This document shows positions 3,768 to 64,000 of a stretch of 64,000 nt of DNA, piece after piece (the first letter of the stretch is position 1; each line of letters opens with the position of its first letter). Under the pieces are notes generated by a model that saw nothing but the letters and a program-made list of their open reading frames with translations, had not been told where the DNA came from and searched no databases. This DNA is from Eledone cirrhosa (Eukaryota). Position numbers and translations under genes: made by a program. The stretch lies in NCBI GenBank assembly GCA_964016885.1, contig OZ024742.1, positions 312,232,001-312,296,000 of the forward strand, in the 5' to 3' direction.

Positions 3768-5990
3768 ATATAATTCAAGCATGTTTTACAACGTGAGGAC
3801 CAGAAACAGGAGGTATTCAAGATTGCGAGGCAGTGTGTCAGAGATAGTTGTGATGTCATTGGAGAGAAGTGTATCCGGAATGATAAAGGTGAGCTTGCCC
3901 TCACAAGTGCTGAGAAGAAAGATGCATGGAAGAGTCATTATGATAGATTACTAAATGAGGAGAATGCATGGGAAGAAGAGACCCTACCCCAAGTAGACCC
4001 TATAGAGGGACCAGCAGTACAAGTCAGCGGCAGCGTAGTAAGTAAGGCAATCAGAGATATGAAGATGGGGAAGGCAACCGGTCCATCGGGTATAGCTGCC
4101 GAGATGCTGAAGGCATCTGGGTCTGTAGGTCACACTATAACCACACGTATCGTTAACCAGGTAATACTAGAAGGGGCCATACCAAAAGATTGGTGCAGTA
4201 GCATCATTGTCAACTGCTACAAAGGCAAAGGCGACGCACTAGATAGAGGAAACTATAGAGGTATAAAGTTGATGGACCAGGTCATGAAAGTAACAGAAAG
4301 AGTTATAGCACAGCTGATTAGGGACCGGGTGAATATAGACGAGATGCAATTTGGGTTTGTACCAGGAAGAGGCACCACTGATGCCCTCTTCCTTGTGAGG
4401 CAATTACAGGAAAAGTACCTAGCTAAAAGTAAGCCACTCTACTTGGCATTTGTCGACCTTGAGAAAGCCTTTGACAGAGTTCCACGTGCTGTAATCTGGT
4501 GGGCTCTTAGAAAACTAGGAGTAGATGAATGGCTTGTGAAAGCGGTACAAGCCATGTATAGAGGAGCAGTCAGCAAAGTTAGGATTAGCAATGAGTATAG
4601 CGAGGAATTTAGCGTACAGGTTGGGGTCCACCAGGGCTCTGTTCTTAGCCCTCTCCTGTTCATCATAGTCCTGCAGGCAATAACGGAGGAATTTAAGACC
4701 GGATGCCCATGGGAACTCCTGTATGCTGATGACCTCGCACTCATAGCTGAATCTATGATAGAACTAGAGAATAAATTCCAAACCTGGAAGCAGGGACTAG
4801 AGAGAAAGGGTCTCAAAGTCAACATGACAAAGACTAAGGTCCTTGTAAGTAGACGAGAAAACAGAACCCAGATCCCCTCAGGGAAATGGCCTTGCTCAGT
4901 ATGTAGGAAAGGTGTAGGTAGGAACTCCCTTCTCTGCCCCAAATGCAAACAATGGGTACACAAGAGATGTAGCGGGATCTCAGGAAGCTTAATTAAGAAT
5001 GTAGGATTCACATGCAGCAGCTGTGCTGAAACAGCAAGCAGCAAACAGCCACAGGAAACAAGTACCACCAATCTCTGGGAGGGCCCTGTAGAAACAGTAG
5101 ACAGCTTCTGCTACCTAGGTGACCGAATTAGCAACGGAGGTGGGTGTTCAGAAAGTACAATAACTAGGGTAAGAACGGGATGGAAGAAGTTTAGGGAACT
5201 ACTACCACTGCTAGCTGCAAAAGGCTTTTCCCTCAGAATGAAAGGCAGACTGTATGATGCGTGTATCCGAACATCGATGTTGCATGGTAGTGAGACCTGG
5301 GCGCTGAAGGTGAAAGACTTACGTAGATTAGAGAGAAACAAAGCCTGCATGCTCCGATGGATGTGTAACAGTAATATACGTGAACGACAAAGTATAAATG
5401 AATTGAGAGAGAGACTGAGCATAAGAGGAATCAAATGCTGTGTGCAGGAGAGGCGGTTGCGCTGGTATGGACATGTGATGCGTATGAAGGATGACAGTTG
5501 CATAAAAAGGTGCAGAGCACTAGAAGTTGATGGAAACCGCGGAGTGGGGAGACCCAAGATGACCTGGGATGAGGTGATAAAAGCCGACCTTACCCAATTA
5601 CACCTCTCAAAGACAATGACACACGACCGTGACTTCTGGCGTCACGCAGTAATACAGAGTACCCGACCTCCCATGGGTACATGCTGAAGCATATAAACAA
5701 TATGCCCCCACACCCCCCACCGCAAGGTGGTCGTGGAGGTGCCACGGCAAAAAAGCACCCAGCCCACACTGTAAAGTGGACGTGTAGGCGCCACGAAAAA
5801 GCACCCAGCACTCACTGTAAATGAGGTTGGTGTTAGGAAGGGCATCCAGCTGTAGAAATCAAGCCAGATCAGTTCCTGTATGAGCAAGGCATGGTCAGCC
5901 GACCAGACACTGCACACAACAGGACAACCCGTCTAACCCATGCTAGCGTGGAAGAACGGACGTAAAACGGTGATGATGACGGTGATGATG
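3768..5990 (+). mobile_element. 5'-truncated RTE-clade LINE
   Basis: RT ORF, (GAT)n tail at ~5970-5990 and an 8-bp TSD ATATGACA at 3760-3767 and 5991-5998. Confidence 0.92.
3774..5687 (+). CDS. RTE reverse transcriptase (partial; endonuclease lost by truncation) with inserted PHD-like finger
   Basis: Frame open from 3774 (first Met 4059); motifs NYRGIKL, QFGF, AFVDLEKAFDRV, GVHQGSVLSP, YADD, YLG, HGSETW, LRWYGHV, GRPK..W. Confidence 0.93.
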   Translation, partial: FKHVLQREDQKQEVFKIARQCVRDSCDVIGEKCIRNDKGELALTSAEKKDAWKSHYDRLLNEENAWEEETLPQVDPIEGPAVQVSGSVVSKAIRDMKMGKATGPSGIAAEMLKASGSVGHTITTRIVNQVILEGAIPKDWCSSIIVNCYKGKGDALDRGNYRGIKLMDQVMKVTERVIAQLIRDRVNIDEMQFGFVPGRGTTDALFLVRQLQEKYLAKSKPLYLAFVDLEKAFDRVPRAVIWWALRKLGVDEWLVKAVQAMYRGAVSKVRISNEYSEEFSVQVGVHQGSVLSPLLFIIVLQAITEEFKTGCPWELLYADDLALIAESMIELENKFQTWKQGLERKGLKVNMTKTKVLVSRRENRTQIPSGKWPCSVCRKGVGRNSLLCPKCKQWVHKRCSGISGSLIKNVGFTCSSCAETASSKQPQETSTTNLWEGPVETVDSFCYLGDRISNGGGCSESTITRVRTGWKKFRELLPLLAAKGFSLRMKGRLYDACIRTSMLHGSETWALKVKDLRRLERNKACMLRWMCNSNIRERQSINELRERLSIRGIKCCVQERRLRWYGHVMRMKDDSCIKRCRALEVDGNRGVGRPKMTWDEVIKADLTQLHLSKTMTHDRDFWRHAVIQSTRPPMGTC

Positions 5991-17984: not shown

Positions 17985-18380
17985 GGAGGCACATGGCTTA
18001 GTGGTTAGAGCATTGGCCTTGCAATCGAAAGGTTGTGAGTTCAATTCGCAGACCGGGTGATGTGTTGTTTCCTTGAGCAAGACACTTTATTTCACATTGC
18101 TCCAGTTTATTCAGCTGTAGAAATGAGATGATAGGGACTGGGGTCCCTATCATTCCACTGCAAAGTGGTCGTAGAGGTGCCACGGCAAAAAAAAAAAAAA
18201 GCACCCAGCCCACACTGTAAAGTTGACGTGTAGGCGCCATGGAAAACAAGCACCCAACACTCACTGTAAAAGAGGTTGGTGTTAGGAAGGGCATCCAGCT
18301 GTAGAAATCAAGCCAGAATCAGTTCCTGTCCCACCCTTGCAAGCAGGGAAAAGCAGACGTAAAATGATGATGATGATGAT
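17985..18380 (+). mobile_element. Composite SINE: tRNA head + body + two 49-nt modules + GGAAGGGCATCC box + RTE tail B
   Basis: A/B boxes at ~17993-18050; module shared with 5727-5877; tail CCCACCCTTGCAAGCAGGGAAAAGCAGACGTAAAA(TGA)n almost identical to the end of the LINE at 62461-62516. Confidence 0.85.
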
Positions 18381-29705: not shown

Positions 29706-30005
29706 TCTGTCAAATCAATGACGCAACAAACTTTTCTAGTGCTGGTGCCATGATAATATGCACCTAATACTTTCTGTAAAGTTGTTGGCATTCATAAGGG
29801 TATTCAGCCCAAGAAATCATGCCAGAAAGGGTCGACAGGAATCTTCACACAAGCCAACCATCTGACAACTTCTCTAATGCTGGTGCCATGATAAAATGTA
29901 CCCAATACTCTCTGTAAAGTGGTCAGAATTAGGAAAGGAATCAAAGTCAAGAAACTATGCCAAAACTGGAATGTGTATAAGATGTAGCTCCTGGATGGTC
30001 TAGGA

Positions 30006-32059: not shown

Positions 32060-32240
32060 GTTCCAGTTGTTTGATAAACAGTACAGCAAGCTTGGGAAAT
32101 TAACATGTAAGTGGCTGAGCATTCCACAGATATGTGAACCCATAATGTAATTCTCAGGGAAATTGAGCATGACAGAACATGTGACAAGGTTGGCTGGCTC
32201 TTTGAATTCAGGCACAATCCATCCAACTAATTTCACTCAA
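32060..32240 (+). mobile_element. Interspersed repeat (SINE-like family 5)
   Basis: AATTAAC.TG.AA.TGG.TGAG.ATTCCA..A.ATGTG.ACCCATAA shared with ~59570-59705 and, reversed, ~38600-38700. Confidence 0.6.
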
Positions 32241-32302
32241 ACAGCATGGATAAACCCAAGGCTACGGTAAATGACACTTGCCCAAACACTAATTTAATAG
32301 AG

Positions 32303-32765
32303 TGTTTGTGTAGGTGTCACGACGAAAAAAATCACCCAGTCCACACTGTAATGTGGTCATGTAGGTGTCACAACAAAAAAGCTCCCAGTCCACACTGAAG
32401 AGTGGTCGTGTAGGTGTCATGACAAAAAAGCACCCAGTCCACACTGTAGAGTGGTCATGTAGGTGTCACGACAAAAAAGTACCCAGTCCACACGGTAGAG
32501 TGGTCGTGTAGGTGTCACGACAAAAAAGCACCCAGCCCACACTGTGAAGTGGTCGTGTAGGTGTCACGGTAAATAAGCACCCAGTATGCACTATAAATGA
32601 GGTTGGTGTTAGGAAGGGCATCCAGCTGTAGAAATCCAGCCAAAATCAGTTCTGTATGAGCATGACATGGTTGCCTGAACTGCCATTGCCCACAACAGGA
32701 CAACCCGTCTAACCCATGTTAGCGTGGAAGAATGGACGTATGATGATGATGATGATGATGATGAA
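32303..32765 (+). mobile_element. RTE-dependent non-autonomous element: six 49-bp units + GGAAGGGCATCC box + tail A + (GAT)n
   Basis: Unit starts at ~32303, 32353, 32402, 32451, 32500, 32549; the rest is colinear with 5820-5990. Confidence 0.88.
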
Positions 32766-35700: not shown

Positions 35701-36000
35701 AAAAAAGAATGTGAATGAGTGAAAACAATTAGTAAATTATGTGAACATTTCACACTTTTTATACTAAACTACCTGAAACTACATATGGTTCAACAATACT
35801 TTAAACTGCTTATATTTATTTAAAAACTTCCCATCACAATTTTATGTAAAAAAAAACACCAAAACCCAGCTTAATAATGAGAAATTTAATTATTTTATTA
35901 AATCCCCCCAACAAATAAATTTATTCTAACCCTTTAGACACTGGCCCTACTGAAACCATTCTTAATTTTACAATACAATACTGTATTATAAAATGTTTAT

Positions 36001-36193
36001 CATCATCACCGTTTTACGTCCATTCTTCCATGCTAGCATGGGTTGTCCTGTTGTGGGCAGTGTCTGGTCGACTGACCTTGTCTTGCTTGATTTCTACAGC
36101 TAGATGCCCTTCCTAACACCAACCTCATTTACACTGAGTGCTGGGTGCTTTTTTCCGTGGTGCCTACACGTCCACTTTACAGTATGGGCTGGG
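36001..36193 (-). mobile_element. Short insertion of the module + tail A into a family-B MITE
   Basis: TSD TGTTTAT at 35994-36000 and 36194-36200; the empty site AAATGTTTATATTTATCT is seen in the paralogous MITE near 38210. Confidence 0.85.
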
Positions 36194-36889
36194 TGTTTAT
36201 ATTTGTCTAAAAACTTTCCATCATAATTTTATGTAAACACCTTAGTTAAGTTATGCTCCAAGCACCAGATTAATGATGAGAAATTTAATTATTTTACTAA
36301 ATCTTTCCAAATTCTTAATTATTTTCAAAATTATTAAAAGTATTTATAGACAGTGTCTTCCATTAAGAATATAGTAACAAAACAAGTTAAACCTATAATC
36401 TAATTCTTGGTCCACTTCTCTATATATTTGCCAATAAAACTATTATGGAGAGATTCAAGACTATCCCCTATCACTGATGTAAGTTCCAGACCTGGAAGGA
36501 AGGATATTCAATCAACAGGCATGAAGAGAAAAATAAGAAAAGCAGCCAAAAATATGGTTTTATTCAACACAAATAATAATTAAGAACTCTCTACCATGCA
36601 ACAAGCAGTAATATGGGCTAAAGATGGTACATCTAGTAGAATGAACTGTGTGGATTAGAGCTAGCTGTGACAAACTAGTGTCCTCTAATGTCCAGTGGTC
36701 TTTTAGTTAAAGTAATTTGCATTCATCATATAGGAGGTATGTATGCTGACTATATGTTGTTTTATAGTTTATAGTAACTTGTCTTGAAAAAAATTCAAGA
36801 CTCAGGAAAAACTAGTATAATTTATGATAGATCTTAATATATGTGTGTGCGCACGCGCATATATATATATATCCATTACCATTAAAAGG

Positions 36890-40081: not shown

Positions 40082-40368
40082 GAGTGAGACACTAGAGGGT
40101 GAGGGAGAGTGAGACACTAGAGGGTGGGAGAGTGAGACACTAGAAGGTGGCATAGTGAGACACTAGAGGGAGGGAGAGTGAAACACTAGAGGGTGGGGGA
40201 GTGAGACACTAGAGGGTGGGGGAGTGAGACACTAGAGGGTGGGGTGAGACACTAGAAGGTGGGGGTGAGACACTAGAAGGTGAGAGTGAGACACTAGAGG
40301 GTGGGAGAGTGAGACATTAGATGGTGGGAGTGAGACATTAGAGGGTGAGAGAGTGAGACACTAGAGTG
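40082..40368. repeat. Minisatellite, ~21-24-bp unit GAGTGAGACACTAGAGGGTGG(G), about 13 copies
   Basis: Seen directly. Confidence 0.92.
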
Positions 40369-42006: not shown

Positions 42007-43589
42007 AATGTAAGTATACCCACACATAGATACACACACACACATAATACATACATATGTATGCTTGCACTCACACATGCAGTTAGATACATACACACAT
42101 ACATACAAGTACACACACACACACATATACATACATGCGTGTGCATGCACTCTCACACACACAGATAGATACATATACACATACATACATGCTCTCTCAC
42201 ATACACACATAGACAGACAGATAGATAGATAGATAGAGAAGGAGGGAGAGAAATCAGAGAAAGTAAGAGGATACATGAGAATGAGGGGGGATTAATGGAG
42301 AATGAATGGAAAAGATTTAAAGAGGAGGGGGGGGGGGGCGAAACAGGAAAAGATGAAGGTGGAGGAGGAAATAAAGTGATAAAAAGAGAGGAACTGGAAA
42401 TAAAGGTAAAGTGACATAGGGAGGAAATTAGTGGGGGTGGGAGAGAGAAAGAAGGGAGCAGGGGGATCAGAATGGATGGAACCACAAAAAGGAGCAAAGT
42501 GAAGGGAGGGTTACAAAATAAAAGGTATCTGTTGGTTAATAGTAGTAATAGTAGAGGTGGTAGTAGTAGTAGTAGTGGTGGTGGTGGTGGTGGTAGTAGT
42601 GGTAGTAAGTAGGAGAGAGAGAGAGAGAGAGAGATATGTGTAAACAATAACTTCTGAATGATAGATACTAATTGATATGCTTCCTATTATGTCTATGCAC
42701 AAACACGCGCATGCACACACACAATGCTAGTGACACAATAAAATGCACCTGACACACTCTGCAAAATGATTTCTGTTAGGGAGGGCATCCAGCCACAGAA
42801 ACCATAATAAAATTGGGACCTATAGGCATGACAATGTTTAATTCGTCTAGGAAAGAGAGCAGAATCTCTGAATATGTATATAATAGGCTTCGTTGAGGAG
42901 ATCTAATAACATTGAAACATGTCCATTGCTTTCACTAAGTTGCTTTAGAGACAAAAACAATACCCAGTGCATTGTCTTCGAGTGTTCCAAGACTTGAATC
43001 AGCCAACGCTATATGAGTTAACTCCCTTGCTTGCTTTCCATGACCTGAATGCCCTATAGGTAAGTTCCGTGCTTGAAATTGCAAAGACAGTTATAGTTGA
43101 TTGGATTTTTTTCCAGACACCACCATATTCAGACAAAGACTGTGTATATGTGTGCACAAACACCTATATCATCATTGTTTAACATCATTTTACCAATGGA
43201 CAGGTCAACACTGACTATGTCAGTATTTGATTGGTGCTTCCGGCCTCTCAGATGGGATGGGAGCTGCATCTCATTTACACATGTTCCCACACTTTACAGA
43301 GTGCACTGGATGCATTTTATCATAGAACCAGCACCAGGAAGGTTGTTATGTTCTCAATACTATTGAAGAGTCCTCTCAACCTTTTGTTTGGCAAGTTTGT
43401 TACAGCTGGATGCCCTTCCTATCACCAACCACTTTACGCCATGTACTGGATGCATTTGTCACTAACATTAGAGAGTTTATCATAGACATCTCATGTCTTC
43501 TAAGAGCCACCTTTTCCAATATATACAGTCACTGCCTTTGTCTCTCTCCCCATCTCTCACTATTATAAGGAAATGAGGGCCCATGTGTT

Positions 43590-43783
43590 GGCTGTCCCCC
43601 AGCCCCGGCAGACAGAATAGGGAAGGTGTTTCCGCGGAGGATGGTGAGAGAGACGCGTTGGAAGAGCCATTCCAGCTCGCGAGGCTCACAGCTGTGGGTA
43701 GTCAACTCCGTGCTGATGGTGGTGATTAGCGAGGTGGTCCTAAGGCCAAGGACACCAGAAGTCTCCAATGCTAATATTAACAT
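43590..43783 (-). pseudogene. 3' fragment of a CRE-like non-LTR retrotransposon (restriction-like endonuclease C-terminus)
   Basis: LALETSGVLG...EPRELEWLFQRVSLTILRGN matches the E-T-x-G ... F-Q-R-L-S-x-A-I-Q-R-G-N pattern of CRE-clade C-termini; locally GC/CpG-rich. Confidence 0.75.
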
Positions 43784-45040
43784 TATGTCAATGGTTTCTA
43801 TGAATGTATACCAATCCTATCAATAACCACTGTGCAATATGAATGGGGTGATACCCAAGTGCATGTGAGATATTTTGCCATTATGACAATGGTTTTATTG
43901 CTAAATGCCCTTCCTATAACCAACAACTTTACAGGATGTACTGAGTGCATTTTATTGTGCTATGAGTGCATGTGTATGTGTGTGCATGCAAGCATTGTCA
44001 TTATAAGCTTAGCAAATGCTAACCACCCAACAGCAATATAGTATGACTGAGGGCAAATAGTCCTCACACACACACAAAATACATACAGACAGACACAATT
44101 TTACTATCACAAATAGTACTAGAAACACTTCCTTCATCAGGAAGACAGAAGTGACATTATAATGACAAACACACAAACATTGAAATTAACTTAATTAAAT
44201 AAAATTAATGAATGAAGAGAGAAGGGGAGAGAAAAAGAGAGTAGGAAAGCTTGTCAAAATCACTTATTCACCATTCTTCTCCCTATATGCCATTTCAAGT
44301 TGACAGTTGGTAAACTGGGAATGTGGGGGTTAGTAGGAAAGAGACAAGAAAGAGATAGGAGAGAGAGAGAGAAGAAAGAGAGAGGAGAGAGAGAGAGACA
44401 GGGGAAGAGTAAGAGGTTTTAGGAGAGAGAAGTAGAAAAAGAAAAGAGAAAATTAGATTTGTCATTTCTTCTAGAAAAAAAAAGACAATAAGGCAAATGA
44501 CAAGAAATCCCAATGGCTGTCTCACTGCCCTACCTACCCCACTGCCTATAACTGAATGCATGCGCGCGCACACACACAGTAATGTGGAAGAGTTCAGGAT
44601 TGAATCTGTGTGACAGTAAAGGTTGATGATTAGTTGAGCAGCCCAGCAACTGAGAGAAAGTACATGCAATTAAAATATAAAATGAAATTACATACCCTGC
44701 TGCTGCTACTACTACTACTACTGCCACCACCACCACCACATAATTGCTGATAGCAATTGTTTTATAGCTCTCAATCTTTTATTCTCCTTCCTACATGCCA
44801 AAAAATAGCCCCAAAATCCTTGTTATATTAAAACAATGACCATTAGAACCAGCAGCAACACCACCACCACTACTATCATTGTTCAAAGGATATATGCTCA
44901 GTATAACAGTTGAGTCCCTATGAGCATGGTTTCTGTATTAATTCCTGATGGAGCCCTAGAGGTGATGTCATAACATATGGCATGTCTTGGCCACTTTAAA
45001 TCTAGCTGAGGTCATTCTTTTCTCTAGATTCCAGCAAAGG

Positions 45041-48032: not shown

Positions 48033-50464
48033 CGTGGTCCAAGTGGACCACCGGTGGTCCACAGAGAATTCGTAACCATAAAAAAATTGTAGCCATTTCA
48101 CAAAAATGTAACTAATATAATATTTTGTTTAATTACACACATATCCATTAAATTTGAAAATTTCGAAATTACGTAGGTATTATGCAGTGCTATATTTATT
48201 TATTTATTTTTTATTCATATAAAAAATGGTACTTGTAACGAATGTACGTACCGTGAAATCTTCTTCGTTGATAACTAAAACGGACAGACAGACAGACATT
48301 CGGCAAATTATAGTAAGATATTCAAGAGAATAGCAAAGACTCGGTACATATATCCGCCACAAGGACCCAAAAAATTATTCCTATGCTAATAGATCACTAC
48401 ACAATATTGTTTGATAATAAATTTGATATTTCTAATTTATAGAAATAAAGTATTTATTATTTTTTTTTTTTCATATCAGTTGTAAGAATGTCTGAACCAA
48501 CTGCTAAAAAGGCAAAACTGAGGAATTACACAGAAGATTTTATCATGTTTGGCTTTGTATCTGTAGACTCAAAACCTATGTGTCTTGAATGTGGTGCCAT
48601 CTTGACAAAACATTCCATGGAAGAAAGTTAAGCTGGAGCAGCACCAGAAATCAAAGCATCCATCATCTGTTGGTAAAGATAGGGAATATTTTGAGAATAA
48701 AAATATAAGTCAAACTATCCAACTTTGTAAAGAAGATGAATACTACAAAAGCAAAGACACTCAAACCAAGTTATTTGGTCTCTGAAATTATTGCCAAGGT
48801 TGCAGCACCTCAGGTTTATGGTGAGAAGTTTGTCAAGCCTGCTATGATAGGTTGTGCAAATGAGATTCTGGGAAAAGATGCTGCATCTACCCTGAGTACA
48901 ATTCCACTTTCAAATGACACTATTACAAGAAGACAGGATGAAATGTCTAATTTTGTTGAGGAGAAGATGGTGGAAATTCTGCAAAAGACAAAGTTTTCTA
49001 TCCAGGTTGATGAGAGCACAATTCATAACCAAGCTATCCTTCTGGTCTATGTCAGATTCATCCATGATATAAGGGAAGAAATGTTATTCATTAAAAGTTT
49101 GCCTGAAACTACTAATGGAGAAGATATATTCAATGAAGTAATGCAGTATTTTAATGATAAAAAATATTCCATTGACTAATTTGATCAACATTGCATCAGA
49201 TGGAGCTGCAGCCATGCCTGGAAAAGTGAAAGGCTTTGTTTCTAGAATGAAATCGGTTGCTCCTCACATCTTTTATATACATTGCATTATCCACAGACAG
49301 CATTTGGTTGCTAAGAATATTAGAGGAGACATGCAAGAAGCACTCAACACTGCCATACATGCAAATCAAACTCAGTGAATAATAGATTTTTTGTGCAATT
49401 CTGTGAAGATAAAAATTTAAAAACCCTATTGCTTCACACAGAAGTAAGATGGTTGTCAAAAGGCCTGAGTCTTGAAAGACTAGTGAATTTGTGGGAACCA
49501 TTAATCAACTTTCTCATGTTCAAATCCCAAATGACTCATTACAACTCCAAGAAGCAAGCTGATACAGCTAAGGAAATTTTGGAAAGACTTCCTGAGTTTA
49601 AATCAAAAATATTCTGATTGATATTTTTAAAACAGTGAATCTGCTTAACTTGGAGCTGCAAGGTAGAAGATCAGATTTAGTCACCTGTGCTCAGAAGATA
49701 AAAGGCTATATGGGGAAATTGAAATTTTGGAAAAAACAGTTTGAGAAAATTTTTTTAGCGTCATTTCAAAATGTCAACACCACTGCTCCTCCATCAGAAT
49801 GCATTGCCCATCTTCAAGGTCTTCGTGTAGACTTTGAGAGAAGATACAATGATCTATTAAAGATGGATTATCCACTCTGGTTTGTAGACCTAGAAAATTA
49901 TGAGCCAGGAGATGAAAATGTTGAGTTGACTGAAATGTTGTTGGACTTGAAAGAGAATGTAAAACTGAGAAGAAGAGTTGACAAAGAAGGTGTCTTTGCC
50001 TACATATCGATAAAGGACTCGCACCCAAATATTTTTCAACATGTAGAAGCAAGCATAATTTCTTTCCCTACCACATGGATGGTGGAATCTGGATTTTCAG
50101 CTGTTGTGGATGTTTTCAGTAGAAAAAGAAATAAATTAGATCTCAACAGCAGAGGAACTATCAGACTAAGACTGATTGACTTCATCAAAATTGATTATGA
50201 TATCTTGTGTCAGAAACACCAAGATCAAGGTAGTCACTAGCTGAATGGACTAAAACTGAATGACTTCATCAAAATTGATTTTGATATCCTGTGTTTATCC
50301 TTGTTTACTAAAATAAATTTTAAAGTGTAAATAGACTATTTTGTCTTTTCATTAAGTATTTTAGTGTGAAAATGGAACAGCTTAAAAGTAAAAGTAGGAG
50401 TGGTCCATTGGAATTTTTTGAAGAAAAAAATGGTCCATGGGCTGAAAAAGGTTGAGAAGCACTG
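48033..50464 (+). mobile_element. Buster-type hAT DNA transposon (decayed, left TIR mostly deleted)
   Basis: Right TIR GGTTGAGAAGCACTG; subterminal TGGTCCA repeats at both ends; TSD GTCTAGAA (48025-48032) / ATCTAGAA (50465-50472). Confidence 0.88.
48488..50240 (+). pseudogene. Buster/ZBED8-like hAT transposase pseudogene
   Basis: BED-like finger (PMCLECG...LEQHQKSKHP), PLSNDTITRR, FSIQVDEST, ASDGAAAM, HCIIHRQHL, HTEVRWLSKG, FPTTWMVESGFS; split by several frameshifts and stops. Confidence 0.93.
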
Positions 50465-62452: not shown

Positions 62453-62460
62453 ATATATAT

Positions 62461-64000
62461 CATCATCATCATCATCATCATTTTACGTCCGCTTTTCCCT
62501 GCTTGCAAGGGTGGGACGGGTCTTATTCAGCACAGCATCTCTCCACTCGTCACGGTCCCTCGTCATCTCCACCGTGAGCTTCAATGATCTGAGGTCTGTT
62601 CTCACCACCTCCGCCCATGTTTTTCGTGGTCTACCTCTACCACGTCTTCCTTCAACTGGCATTTCCTGGCACTTCTTCACCCATCGGTCATCCTCCATGC
62701 GCATCACATGTCCATACCACCTCAGTCTCCTCTCCCGTACACTACATTCTATCCCTCTCAGACACAGTTTCTCTCTCAACACATTTATGCTGGGTCGTTC
62801 ACGCACATTTACACTGCACATCCAACGGAGCATGCTTGCCTCATTTCTCTCCAGCCGTCGCATTTCTTCTGCGGTTGCTGCCCATGTCTCACTACCATGC
62901 AGCATCGCGCTTCTCACACAGGCATCATACAACCGGCCTTTCGTACGCAGGGAGAAACCCTTCTTCGTCAACAGAGGAAGCAGCTCCCTAAACTTCTTCC
63001 AACCCGTCCTTATTCTAGATACTATGGCCTCGGAACACCCTCCTCCCTAGGTACCGGAAGCTATCCACCACTTCTATAGCGCCCTCTCGCATTTGAAAAA
63101 TGTGTCTATCAGTGCGACTTCTACTGTCTAATTTCCCTGTACATCTACTGCATACATATTTCTCCCTACCTGTTAGTTTGCCTGCTATCCCGCTACATCT
63201 CTTGTGTACCCAGGACCTACATTGTGTGCATTTTATAGAATTTATGCCAGTTCCTTTTCTGCATATCGAACATGGCCATTTCCCTGACGGAATCAGGGTT
63301 TTGTCCTCTTTTCTACTCATCAACACTTTTTGTCTTAGCTAGATTTACTCTCAGTCCTCTTGCTTCCAACTGCTGTTTCCATAGCCGGAATTTATTCTCT
63401 AGCTCCTCTACTGATTCTGCCATAAGAGCCAGATCGTCAGCATAGAGAAGTTCCCATGGACAGCCAGTCTTAAACTCCTCTGTTATGGCTTGGAGGACTA
63501 TAATGAACAAGAGCGGGCTGAGGACCGAACCCTGATGTACTCCTACTTGTATCTGGAATTCCTCACTAAACTCCATTCCTACCCTGACTTTACTGAGAGT
63601 ACCTCTGTACAAAGTTTGCACTGTCCTTACAAGCCATTCCTCAACACCCAGCTTCCTTAGGGACCACCAGATGACAGATCGGGGTACCCTATCAAAGGCC
63701 TTCTCTAGATCAACAAAGGCTAAGTATAGTGGCTTATTCTTCTCTAAGAACCTCTCTTGCATTTGTCTCACCAAGAAGAGGGCATCTGTTGTACTCTTCC
63801 CAGGCACAAAACCAAACTGCATCTCATCTAGTTTGACCCTTTCTCTAATTAGTTGTGCTAAAATCCTTTCTGCCACTTTCATAACCTGATCTATCAGTTT
63901 TATACCCCTATAATTGCTCCTCTCCAAAGCATCCCCTTTACCTTTGTAGCAATTTATGAGAATACTGCTGCACCAGTCTTTGGGTATGACACCACCATAT
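62461..64000 (-). mobile_element. RTE LINE, frameshifted RT + PHD-like finger, continues beyond the window
   Basis: ORF pieces 63313-63927, 63015-63326 and 62483-62971 are colinear with the 4059-5687 protein; the stop codon is followed directly by (ATG)n on the coding strand. Confidence 0.94.

What the first reader, a model, noticed from the sequence alone, without database searches (positions are those of the whole stretch)
32303..32640. Tandemly amplified 49-nt pseudoknot + hairpin RNA module shared by LINE, SINE and stand-alone elements
Seen: each unit can form stem GUCGUG/CACGAC, whose loop (UAGGUGU) pairs with GCACC after an A6 linker (H-type pseudoknot), then hairpin CCAC-ACUGUARA-GUGG. 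In the LINE copy stem 1 is GUCGUGG/CCACGGC and the last unit's hairpin is CUCA/UGAG around the same CUGUAAA loop, an apparent compensatory change. Copy number: 6 here, 2 at 5727-5830, 2 at ~18165-18280, ~1.5 at 36001-36193; always followed by GGTTGGTGTTAGGAAGGGCATCCAGCT. Known: RTE 5' ends can carry self-cleaving ribozymes, and some SINE bodies derive from RTE 5' UTRs. Inference: a conserved structured RNA of unknown function (ribozyme, nuclease-resistant fold or RT-recruitment element). Its 5' half superficially recalls pistol P1/pseudoknot/AAA but lacks P2.
Basis: partly seen in the sequence, partly recalled or inferred. Interest (0 to 1): 0.72.

Follow-up and report, generated by a model that had tools for sequence, protein, structure and literature searches.

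The report
Movable pseudoknot handle of RTE retrotransposons
A 49-base repeat in this animal genome is predicted to fold into a small RNA knot plus hairpin, and it sits at the front of one jumping-gene family, at the back of two others and inside a short parasitic element, so it is likely a movable handle used in copying rather than a self-cutting RNA, while the six-copy array itself is an ordinary decaying expansion.

Summary
Observation confirmed. The unit belongs to a very abundant family: one 48-mer has 33,242 exact copies. Three of its four helices are supported: stem 1, the hairpin and the downstream hairpin. One hairpin pair is U-A in 58 and A-U in 50 of 110 copies. The pseudoknot stem is intact in some families but broken in two of the most frequent unit types. 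The unit lies mid-5'UTR in one RTE family (27 of 30 loci), in the 3'UTR of two sister families that lack it at the 5' end, and in a tRNA-CORE SINE. Elements transpose with it intact and show no fixed 5' end there, so a ribozyme is unlikely. Rfam has no match. Best reading: an RTE-leader pseudoknot-hinge-stem, needed once in cis, probably for RNP recognition, as in avian R2. Function is untested. The 6-copy array is a decayed 5'-truncated LINE end: 2 of 6 units are intact, and such arrays are common. The scan noted this motif before in this genome (e1-9544215). The 5'-or-3' placement and the case against cleavage are added here.

The parts
32298..32601 (+). Array of about 6 units (49 nt) in a 5'-truncated RTE LINE 3' end; decayed, 2 of 6 units fully paired
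32503..32552 (+). Best array unit: stem 1 32503-08/32516-21, pseudoknot stem 32511-15/32528-32, A6 linker, CAG-C hinge, hairpin 32537-52
   Evidence: sequence
32601..32634 (+). Downstream ('distal') hairpin domain with AGGAAG loop followed by GUAGAAA; an RTE 5'-UTR-type domain
32635..32764 (+). Spacer and RTE 3' tail ending in (ATG)n; aligns to the tail of the LINE at 5860-5990
3774..5687 (+). 5'-truncated RTE LINE ORF (family A; RT plus PHD-like finger); full-length family ORF is 1040 aa
5730..5779 (+). LINE 3'UTR unit 1, fully paired (6-bp stem 1, 5-bp Watson-Crick pseudoknot stem, 4-bp hairpin)
5780..5825 (+). LINE 3'UTR unit 2: 4-bp stem 1, pseudoknot stem with a C-A mismatch, terminal hairpin CUCA/UGAG
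5825..5990 (+). Distal domain, spacer and 3' tail of the LINE
17985..18057 (+). tRNA-like SINE head with A box (17994) and B box (18037); assigned by eye, not called by ARAGORN
18058..18129 (+). CORE-like SINE domain (by-eye match to the MIR CORE printed in Kojima's supplement); by eye it can also form pseudoknot + CAG + hairpin
18130..18307 (+). SINE body: 9-bp hairpin, lead hairpin, two units, distal domain
18308..18380 (+). SINE tail, 96% identical over 56 nt to the 3' end of RTE family B (window 62465-62520)
36000..36198 (-). 5'-truncated copy beginning mid-unit: 1.5 units, distal domain, family-A-type tail with a deletion
62459..64000 (-). RTE family B LINE (continues into the neighbouring contig stretch L031); short 3' tail without the unit; its truncated 5' UTR begins at the distal domain
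29736..29922 (+). Two older single units (29736-29783, 29876-29922)
43287..43970 (-). Three older units or partial units with distal domains

Best explanation
The unit lies in the 5' UTR of one RTE LINE family, in the 3' UTR of two sister families and in a SINE body; it is predicted to fold as an H-type pseudoknot, short hinge and hairpin, and likely works as a position-independent RNA handle that helps load the RNA into the RTE retrotransposition complex. Shown: the placements, their mutual exclusion between families, and the compensatory pairs. Inferred: origin in an RTE leader. Inferred: a leader-piece + tail cassette (a bipartite non-autonomous element) replaced the 3' end of the A/Y ancestor by template switching just after the KTR codons, and was also joined behind a tRNA-CORE head to make the SINE. 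Inferred: one intact pseudoknot per element is enough, so extra units decay, and DNA-level slippage grows them into arrays after insertion. Untested: that the RTE protein (or a host factor that delivers it) binds the fold.
For: Placement: RTE ORF start within 600 nt downstream in 27 of 30 type-F loci, none with an ORF end upstream. 10 of 10 family-A ORF starts (9 distinct loci) lack unit and distal domain in the 700 nt upstream. 64 of 79 ORF ends are followed by both. All 11 ends with the family-B tail lack them. Retained in an untranslated, Pol III-type SINE: 13 of the first 30 genome hits. Pairing: terminal hairpin pair U-A 58, A-U 50, G-U 1, unpaired 1 of 110. This change separates two 3'-UTR families, so it arose where neither promoter nor initiation is needed. 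Stem-1 pair 2 is U-A 106, U-G 81, C-G 43, C-A only 3 of 253. The last pseudoknot pair is C-G 100, U-G 41, U-A 37 of 276, with 183 paired against 143 expected. On 13 hand-picked type representatives 80% of cells pair against 76% shuffled (9/500) and 30-55% in slid controls. Precedent: avian and turtle R2 proteins bind a 3'UTR pseudoknot-hinge-stem, and compensatory mutants rescue insertion (PMC12180492, passages). RTE SINEs and non-autonomous elements keep a 5'-UTR piece plus the tail (PMC5786205).
Against: No binding or transposition data. The pseudoknot stem is broken in two of the most frequent unit types (type E, 41 copies: only 2-3 pairs or a shifted register; type B, 31 copies: C-A mismatch). 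It is only 4 bp in types D and F. Covariation rests on about ten master sequences, the double changes are single events, and only 5 of 15 pairs show one (118/500 shuffles reach that). Short inverted repeats can be co-corrected by template switching without selection (established mechanism, recalled). Folding z-scores are near 0. A twister-headed RTE family in the same genome shows no such unit next to its ribozyme (read by eye; 0 units upstream of three ORF starts), and the unit model finds nothing convincing in 76 metagenome loci that carry the same distal domain (best E 0.17), so the unit is not universal to RTE. Two A/Y-type ORF ends lacked it (L282, L287). Unlike R2's element it lies 150-250 nt from the 3' end or in the leader.
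Confidence: 0.42

Rival explanations
1. The fold binds the host translation machinery (initiation element in the 5' UTR, cap-independent enhancer in the 3' UTR) and lets the SINE RNA dock on ribosomes near nascent RTE protein, as Alu does through its SRP domain.
For: Fits all three positions. In family B the unit lies about 100-330 nt before the ORF. In Schistosoma RTE, the cleaved twister leader supports translation (PMC8501958, passages).
Against: No resemblance to a known IRES or enhancer family in Rfam. No expression data.
Confidence: 0.2
2. Passenger: the structure mattered only in an ancestral leader (or as a DNA promoter element) and is now carried along; apparent covariation comes from few masters and inverted-repeat correction.
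For: Broken pseudoknot stems in young, abundant unit types. Decaying arrays. Family B 3' ends transpose without it as 5'-truncated copies.
Against: Each family examined at both ends keeps it at exactly one end. Paired double changes separate 3'-UTR families. The SINE keeps it although it has its own A/B boxes.
Confidence: 0.2
3. Exoribonuclease (Xrn1) roadblock that protects the RNA or makes short 3' fragments.
For: Compact pseudoknots with tandem copies are typical of such elements (recalled). An earlier unchecked note (e1-8075267) proposes this for a different LINE pseudoknot.
Against: 5' starts of copies are spread through and beyond the module, with clusters only at family junctions. No match to Rfam xrRNA families. 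Pattern absent from viral contigs.
Confidence: 0.1
4. New self-cleaving ribozyme (pistol-like), occupying the slot that twister fills in other RTEs.
For: In metagenome loci L165, L203 and L109 a twister-like sequence directly precedes the same distal domain. Stem 1 resembles pistol P1 (recalled).
Against: Tens of thousands of LINE and SINE copies carry it internally between ORF or head and tail. Family-B leaders run from 64 to at least 800 nt upstream of it with no fixed start, whereas 3 of 4 twister-family copies begin at the ribozyme (read by eye). No P2 and no Rfam match.
Confidence: 0.05

Closest known systems
RTE 5'-UTR-derived SINE bodies and bipartite non-autonomous RTEs (Kojima 2018, PMC5786205; Kojima 2020, PMC7245038)
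   Same: Internal 5'-UTR piece plus 3' tail of an RTE, behind a tRNA head and CORE domain (same layout as WALLSI2 and SINE2-2_ACar); the leader piece is not the extreme 5' end.
   Different: This sequence was not found in the supplement's text. No RNA structure is proposed there for these pieces in the parts read. Here the cassette also sits in the 3' UTR of autonomous LINEs and is tandemly repeated.
Pseudoknot-hinge-stem of avian and turtle R2 3' UTRs (PMC12180492)
   Same: Pseudoknot, short hinge, stem-loop of similar total size (about 50 versus 65 nt) in a non-LTR retrotransposon UTR.
   Different: Different LINE clade. Sequences were not compared. The R2 element abuts the priming site and is read by zinc fingers that RTE proteins lack at the N terminus (recalled). 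This unit is far from the 3' end or in the leader.
Twister ribozymes at RTE 5' ends (Perere-3; PMC8501958)
   Same: Same LINE clade. The twister is followed by a GGUUG-hairpin-GUAAAA domain like the one that follows this unit.
   Different: No twister core here. The unit is internal and does not mark 5' ends.
CORE domain of CORE-SINEs (MIR; Ceph 5' half)
   Same: By eye the same order: stem, loop pairing downstream, CAG, hairpin with a 7-nt loop ending GUAAA (sequences seen).
   Different: 9-nt loop and a 12-13-nt pyrimidine-rich linker instead of 7-nt and A-rich. The unit HMM and CM do not detect CORE, and MAFFT does not align them in register.
Pistol ribozyme (features recalled)
   Same: CGUG/CACG stem whose loop forms a pseudoknot, followed by an A-rich linker.
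   Different: No P2, no conserved catalytic junction, no Rfam match.

Membership tests
RTE 5'-UTR-derived SINE body / bipartite RTE cassette | Segment occurs in the 5' UTR of an autonomous RTE | tested here: met
   27 of 30 loci have the ORF start downstream;
RTE 5'-UTR-derived SINE body / bipartite RTE cassette | SINE ends in the 3' tail of an RTE | tested here: met
   96% over 56 nt to the family-B 3' end
RTE 5'-UTR-derived SINE body / bipartite RTE cassette | Identity with a named Repbase, Dfam or SINEBase family | not testable with these tools
   Libraries not available; Kojima supplement figure S4 is a picture
Ceph domain, 3' half (RTE-derived) | Sequence similarity to the Ceph 3' half | tested here: not met
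   By eye against the OegopSINE and IdioSINE2 sequences; the Ceph-like piece lies upstream of the unit in older family-B leaders
Pistol ribozyme | P2 helix enclosing the pseudoknot strand and P3 (recalled) | tested here: not met
   The linker runs straight into the pseudoknot strand; no Rfam match at E<=10
Twister / HDV-like RTE 5' ribozymes | Located at, and defining, the element's 5' end | tested here: not met
   Internal in all families; dispersed 5' starts
Twister / HDV-like RTE 5' ribozymes | Conserved catalytic core / Rfam model match | tested here: not met
   the same search finds twister-P1 in 5 of 5 control loci, below gathering score
Any self-cleaving ribozyme | Self-cleavage in vitro | not testable with these tools
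   Only contigs were available
R2-type pseudoknot-hinge-stem | Pseudoknot, hinge and stem in that order | tested here: inconclusive
   Predicted, with partial covariation; pseudoknot stem broken in some types
R2-type pseudoknot-hinge-stem | At the RNA 3' terminus next to the primer | tested here: not met
   150-250 nt upstream of the 3' end, or in the 5' UTR
R2-type pseudoknot-hinge-stem | Bound by the element's protein | not testable with these tools
   No protein-RNA tool
CORE domain | Detectable sequence or profile similarity | tested here: not met
   0 overlaps between 74 CORE hits and unit hits; CM gives no hit on the window's CORE copies at E<=10
xrRNA | Xrn1 stalling | not testable with these tools
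   No Rfam match; no clustered 5' ends

The most novel reading that the evidence does not exclude
RTE retrotransposons need a second RNA handle besides the 3' tail: a portable pseudoknot-hinge-stem that works from either UTR. This would explain why RTE-driven SINEs keep a piece of the leader. The ancient CORE domain of SINEs folds into the same pseudoknot + CAG + GUAAA-loop hairpin, so the most widespread SINE body would be a member of the same structural class and possibly a captured LINE leader element.
Probability: 0.2. Interest if true: 0.82.

Novelty: new variant of a known kind. Interest (0 to 1): 0.5.

Why it matters
Why RTE-mobilised SINEs and non-autonomous elements keep a 5'-UTR fragment, and what conserved SINE bodies do, are open questions (Kojima 2018 calls the origins of widely conserved bodies completely unknown). 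This genome offers a natural experiment: the same 50-nt folded unit at the 5' end in one family, at the 3' end in its sisters, and in a SINE. That makes the handle hypothesis testable with a small construct set. The 6-copy array itself is ordinary.

Tried and rejected
Rfam: no match over the window at gathering score, and only chance matches or none at E<=10 around the array, the LINE copy and a family-B leader. DNA search of the genome with the module returned nothing because common words are skipped; patterns were used instead. Homology to CORE by HMM, CM and MAFFT: negative. The CORE shuffle test used a linker limit (12 nt) too short for CORE and says nothing. An apparent fixed 5' start of family Y at -168 was an artefact of the reference copy. 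Circular or ladder RNA idea: the arrays examined end in the distal domain or tail and several start in LINE 3'UTR sequence; nothing points to rolling-circle origin, and it was not testable. Sequencing runs: no RNA holder listed; contigs cannot show RNA ends. The unit pattern is absent from viral contigs; 2 hits in prokaryote genomes were not examined. The contig look-up tool for protein homologues was closed, so UTRs of the RTE relatives found were not seen and cross-species covariation is missing. Literature searches found no description of this unit or of a CORE pseudoknot. Subscription papers, Gilbert and Labuda 1999 (not held), Repbase, Dfam, SINEBase and picture supplements could not be checked.

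Full report
Observation. The array is real: period 49, 5.8 copies, 32298-32585. Unit 5 has a 6-bp stem 1, a 2-nt loop 1, a 5-bp pseudoknot stem, an A6 linker, a CAG-C hinge and a 4-bp hairpin. A unit HMM gives 22 hits in the window and 401 in 1.264 Mb of genome sample, against 3 in the reversed control. Only 2 of the 6 array units keep the full structure. Shuffles reproduce the layout in 0-6 of 1000 trials (post hoc). The nested fold recovers stem 1 and the hairpin but is no more stable than shuffles.

Abundance and carriers. The window lies in a 3.0-Gb animal genome. I take it for an octopod from recalled repeat sequences; no call shows this. One 48-mer spanning the last unit has 33,242 exact copies, with 0 in the control. 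Of the first 30 hits, 16 follow an RTE ORF end, 13 follow a tRNA-like head and CORE-like domain, and 1 is truncated. In 1.064 Mb sampled mostly at fixed steps there are 254 units in 113 loci: 56 single, 39 double, 5 triple and 13 with four or more units. Arrays reach more than 60 units, and several start in LINE 3'UTR sequence and end in the distal domain and tail (14 of 30 loci examined). The 6-copy array has the LINE's tail. It is a truncated LINE end with local expansion.

Where the unit comes from. Family A (the LINE at 3774-5990) has a 1040-aa ORF and a leader of roughly 400-nt repeats without the motif (RT and PHD). A sister family Y also carries units in its 3' UTR. In family B the unit and distal domain lie in the 5' UTR. 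Of 30 loci picked by a family-B unit pattern (1,573 copies), 27 have the ORF start within 600 nt downstream and none has an ORF end upstream, and shared sequence runs from 64 to at least 800 nt further 5'. The placements exclude each other. 10 of 10 family-A ORF starts (9 loci) and 2 related starts have no unit upstream. Of 79 ORF ends, 64 are followed by unit and distal domain, 1 by units only and 14 by neither; these 14 are 11 family-B ends, 2 A/Y-type exceptions and 1 distant element. Many of these loci were fetched by unit patterns, so the counts are not frequencies. The window's second LINE (62459-64000) is family B, and the SINE's tail matches its 3' end. The SINE is therefore tRNA-CORE-leader piece-tail, the layout described by Kojima 2018 (PMC5786205; main text parts 1-4 of 5, supplement part 1 of 15 and search passages) and Kojima 2020 (PMC7245038, passages).

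Is the fold real? Clustering 276 near-complete units gives 12 clusters of three or more copies. On 13 representatives that I chose (one per type, some decayed single copies), 80% of cells pair against 76% in shuffles (9/500), with stem 1 at 89% and the pseudoknot stem at 80%. The number of pairs with double changes (5 of 15) is not above shuffles (118/500), and terminal hairpins were out of register in that alignment. In register, one terminal-hairpin pair is U-A in 58 and A-U in 50 of 110 copies, which is one event between two masters. Stem-1 pair 2 and the last pseudoknot pair also change in step. Against: type E (41 copies) and type B (31 copies) have a broken pseudoknot stem. Both are second units behind a better-paired first unit. 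Types F and G have an A-G mismatch in outer stem 1. The distal hairpin pairs in 131-148 of 151 copies at each position, and family B has an altered but paired outer stem (by eye). I put the hairpins and stem 1 at about 0.85 and the pseudoknot at about 0.7.

Not a ribozyme, most likely. Cleavage would separate ORF or head from the tail, yet such elements are the most abundant. 5' starts of copies are dispersed, with clusters only at family junctions. Rfam finds nothing. As a control, a third RTE family here has a twister (twister-P1, E 7.5e-6 to 0.07 in 5 of 5 loci, below gathering score), followed by an analogous hairpin; 3 of 4 such copies begin at it (by eye). This matches Perere-3 (PMC8501958, passages).

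Beyond this genome. The distal motif occurs in at least 120 metagenome loci. 92 of the 121 loci start about 30 nt upstream in another family. Three follow a twister-like sequence, one of which runs into RTE endonuclease-like sequence (by eye). The unit CM finds no convincing unit in 76 of these loci. Contigs of coded organisms A, B, C and E carry the distal domain, preceded by the linker and pseudoknot strand; in A and B some copies have a different hairpin loop. The unit thus looks lineage-limited, the distal domain widespread.

Mechanism. An element kept in a leader, in a 3' UTR and in an untranslated Pol III-type SINE is best read as an RNA feature acting in cis, independent of position. 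The nearest tested case is the pseudoknot-hinge-stem bound by avian and turtle R2 proteins (PMC12180492, passages). I give direct RNP recognition 0.42, a translation or ribosome tether 0.2, passenger 0.2, Xrn1 block 0.1 and ribozyme 0.05.

CORE lead. By eye, the SINE's own CORE domain, the MIR CORE and the Ceph CORE printed in Kojima's supplement can all form stem / loop-pairing / CAG / hairpin with a GUAAA-ending loop, with different stem sequences. One low-depth contig of organism D joins a CORE 5' part to the unit's hairpin at the CAG. Profile tests were negative, so this is an analogy, not shown homology.

Literature. Searches found no description of the unit. Also seen: PMC4758252 (passages and section 13), PMC13282606 (part 1 of 3) and PMC9115989 (passages). 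Repeat libraries and picture supplements could not be searched, so the sequence family is probably catalogued even if its fold is not.

Verdict. A real structured RTE-leader module that has moved between UTRs. New variant of a known kind, interest 0.5. The array itself is ordinary.

Noticed in passing
L262-L264, L274 (G000:C1:229591229, C1:234771535, C1:301998643, C3:66203650): A low-copy RTE family in this genome begins with a type-P1 twister ribozyme lacking P3, followed by a GGUUG-hairpin-CGUAAAA domain.
   Followed up: partly
L092-L211 (metagenome contigs): About 90 copies of a short non-coding element start sharply about 30 nt upstream of the distal motif; the fixed 5' end may reflect an upstream cleavage or a defined start. 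Not HDV-like by eye.
   Followed up: partly
window 18058-18129 and CORE copies: The CORE domain can be drawn as an H-type pseudoknot plus hairpin; stem variants GUGUC/GACAC and GUGUU/AACAC occur in this genome. I found no paper describing this.
   Followed up: partly
L213:1685-2230, L224: Family-A LINE leader is built of tandem repeats of roughly 400 nt, recalling the promoter monomers of mouse L1.
   Followed up: no
window 3774-5687 (aa 374-417): PHD-like zinc finger inserted after the RT core; many RTE homologues carry the same Pfam hit.
   Followed up: no
L064, L067, L068, L072: Family Y copies with a 112-nt tandem repeat that includes the unit and the distal domain.
   Followed up: no
window 32151-32300, minus strand: Decayed fragment of a second CORE-type SINE directly beside the array, in opposite orientation.
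   Followed up: no
window 48709-50240: Broken ORFs resembling a hAT/SCAN-type transposase (by eye).
   Followed up: no
window 40082-40366: 23-nt minisatellite, 12.7 copies.
   Followed up: no
L317, L318: Two bacterial MAG contigs match the unit's pseudoknot pattern; chance or contamination not examined.
   Followed up: no
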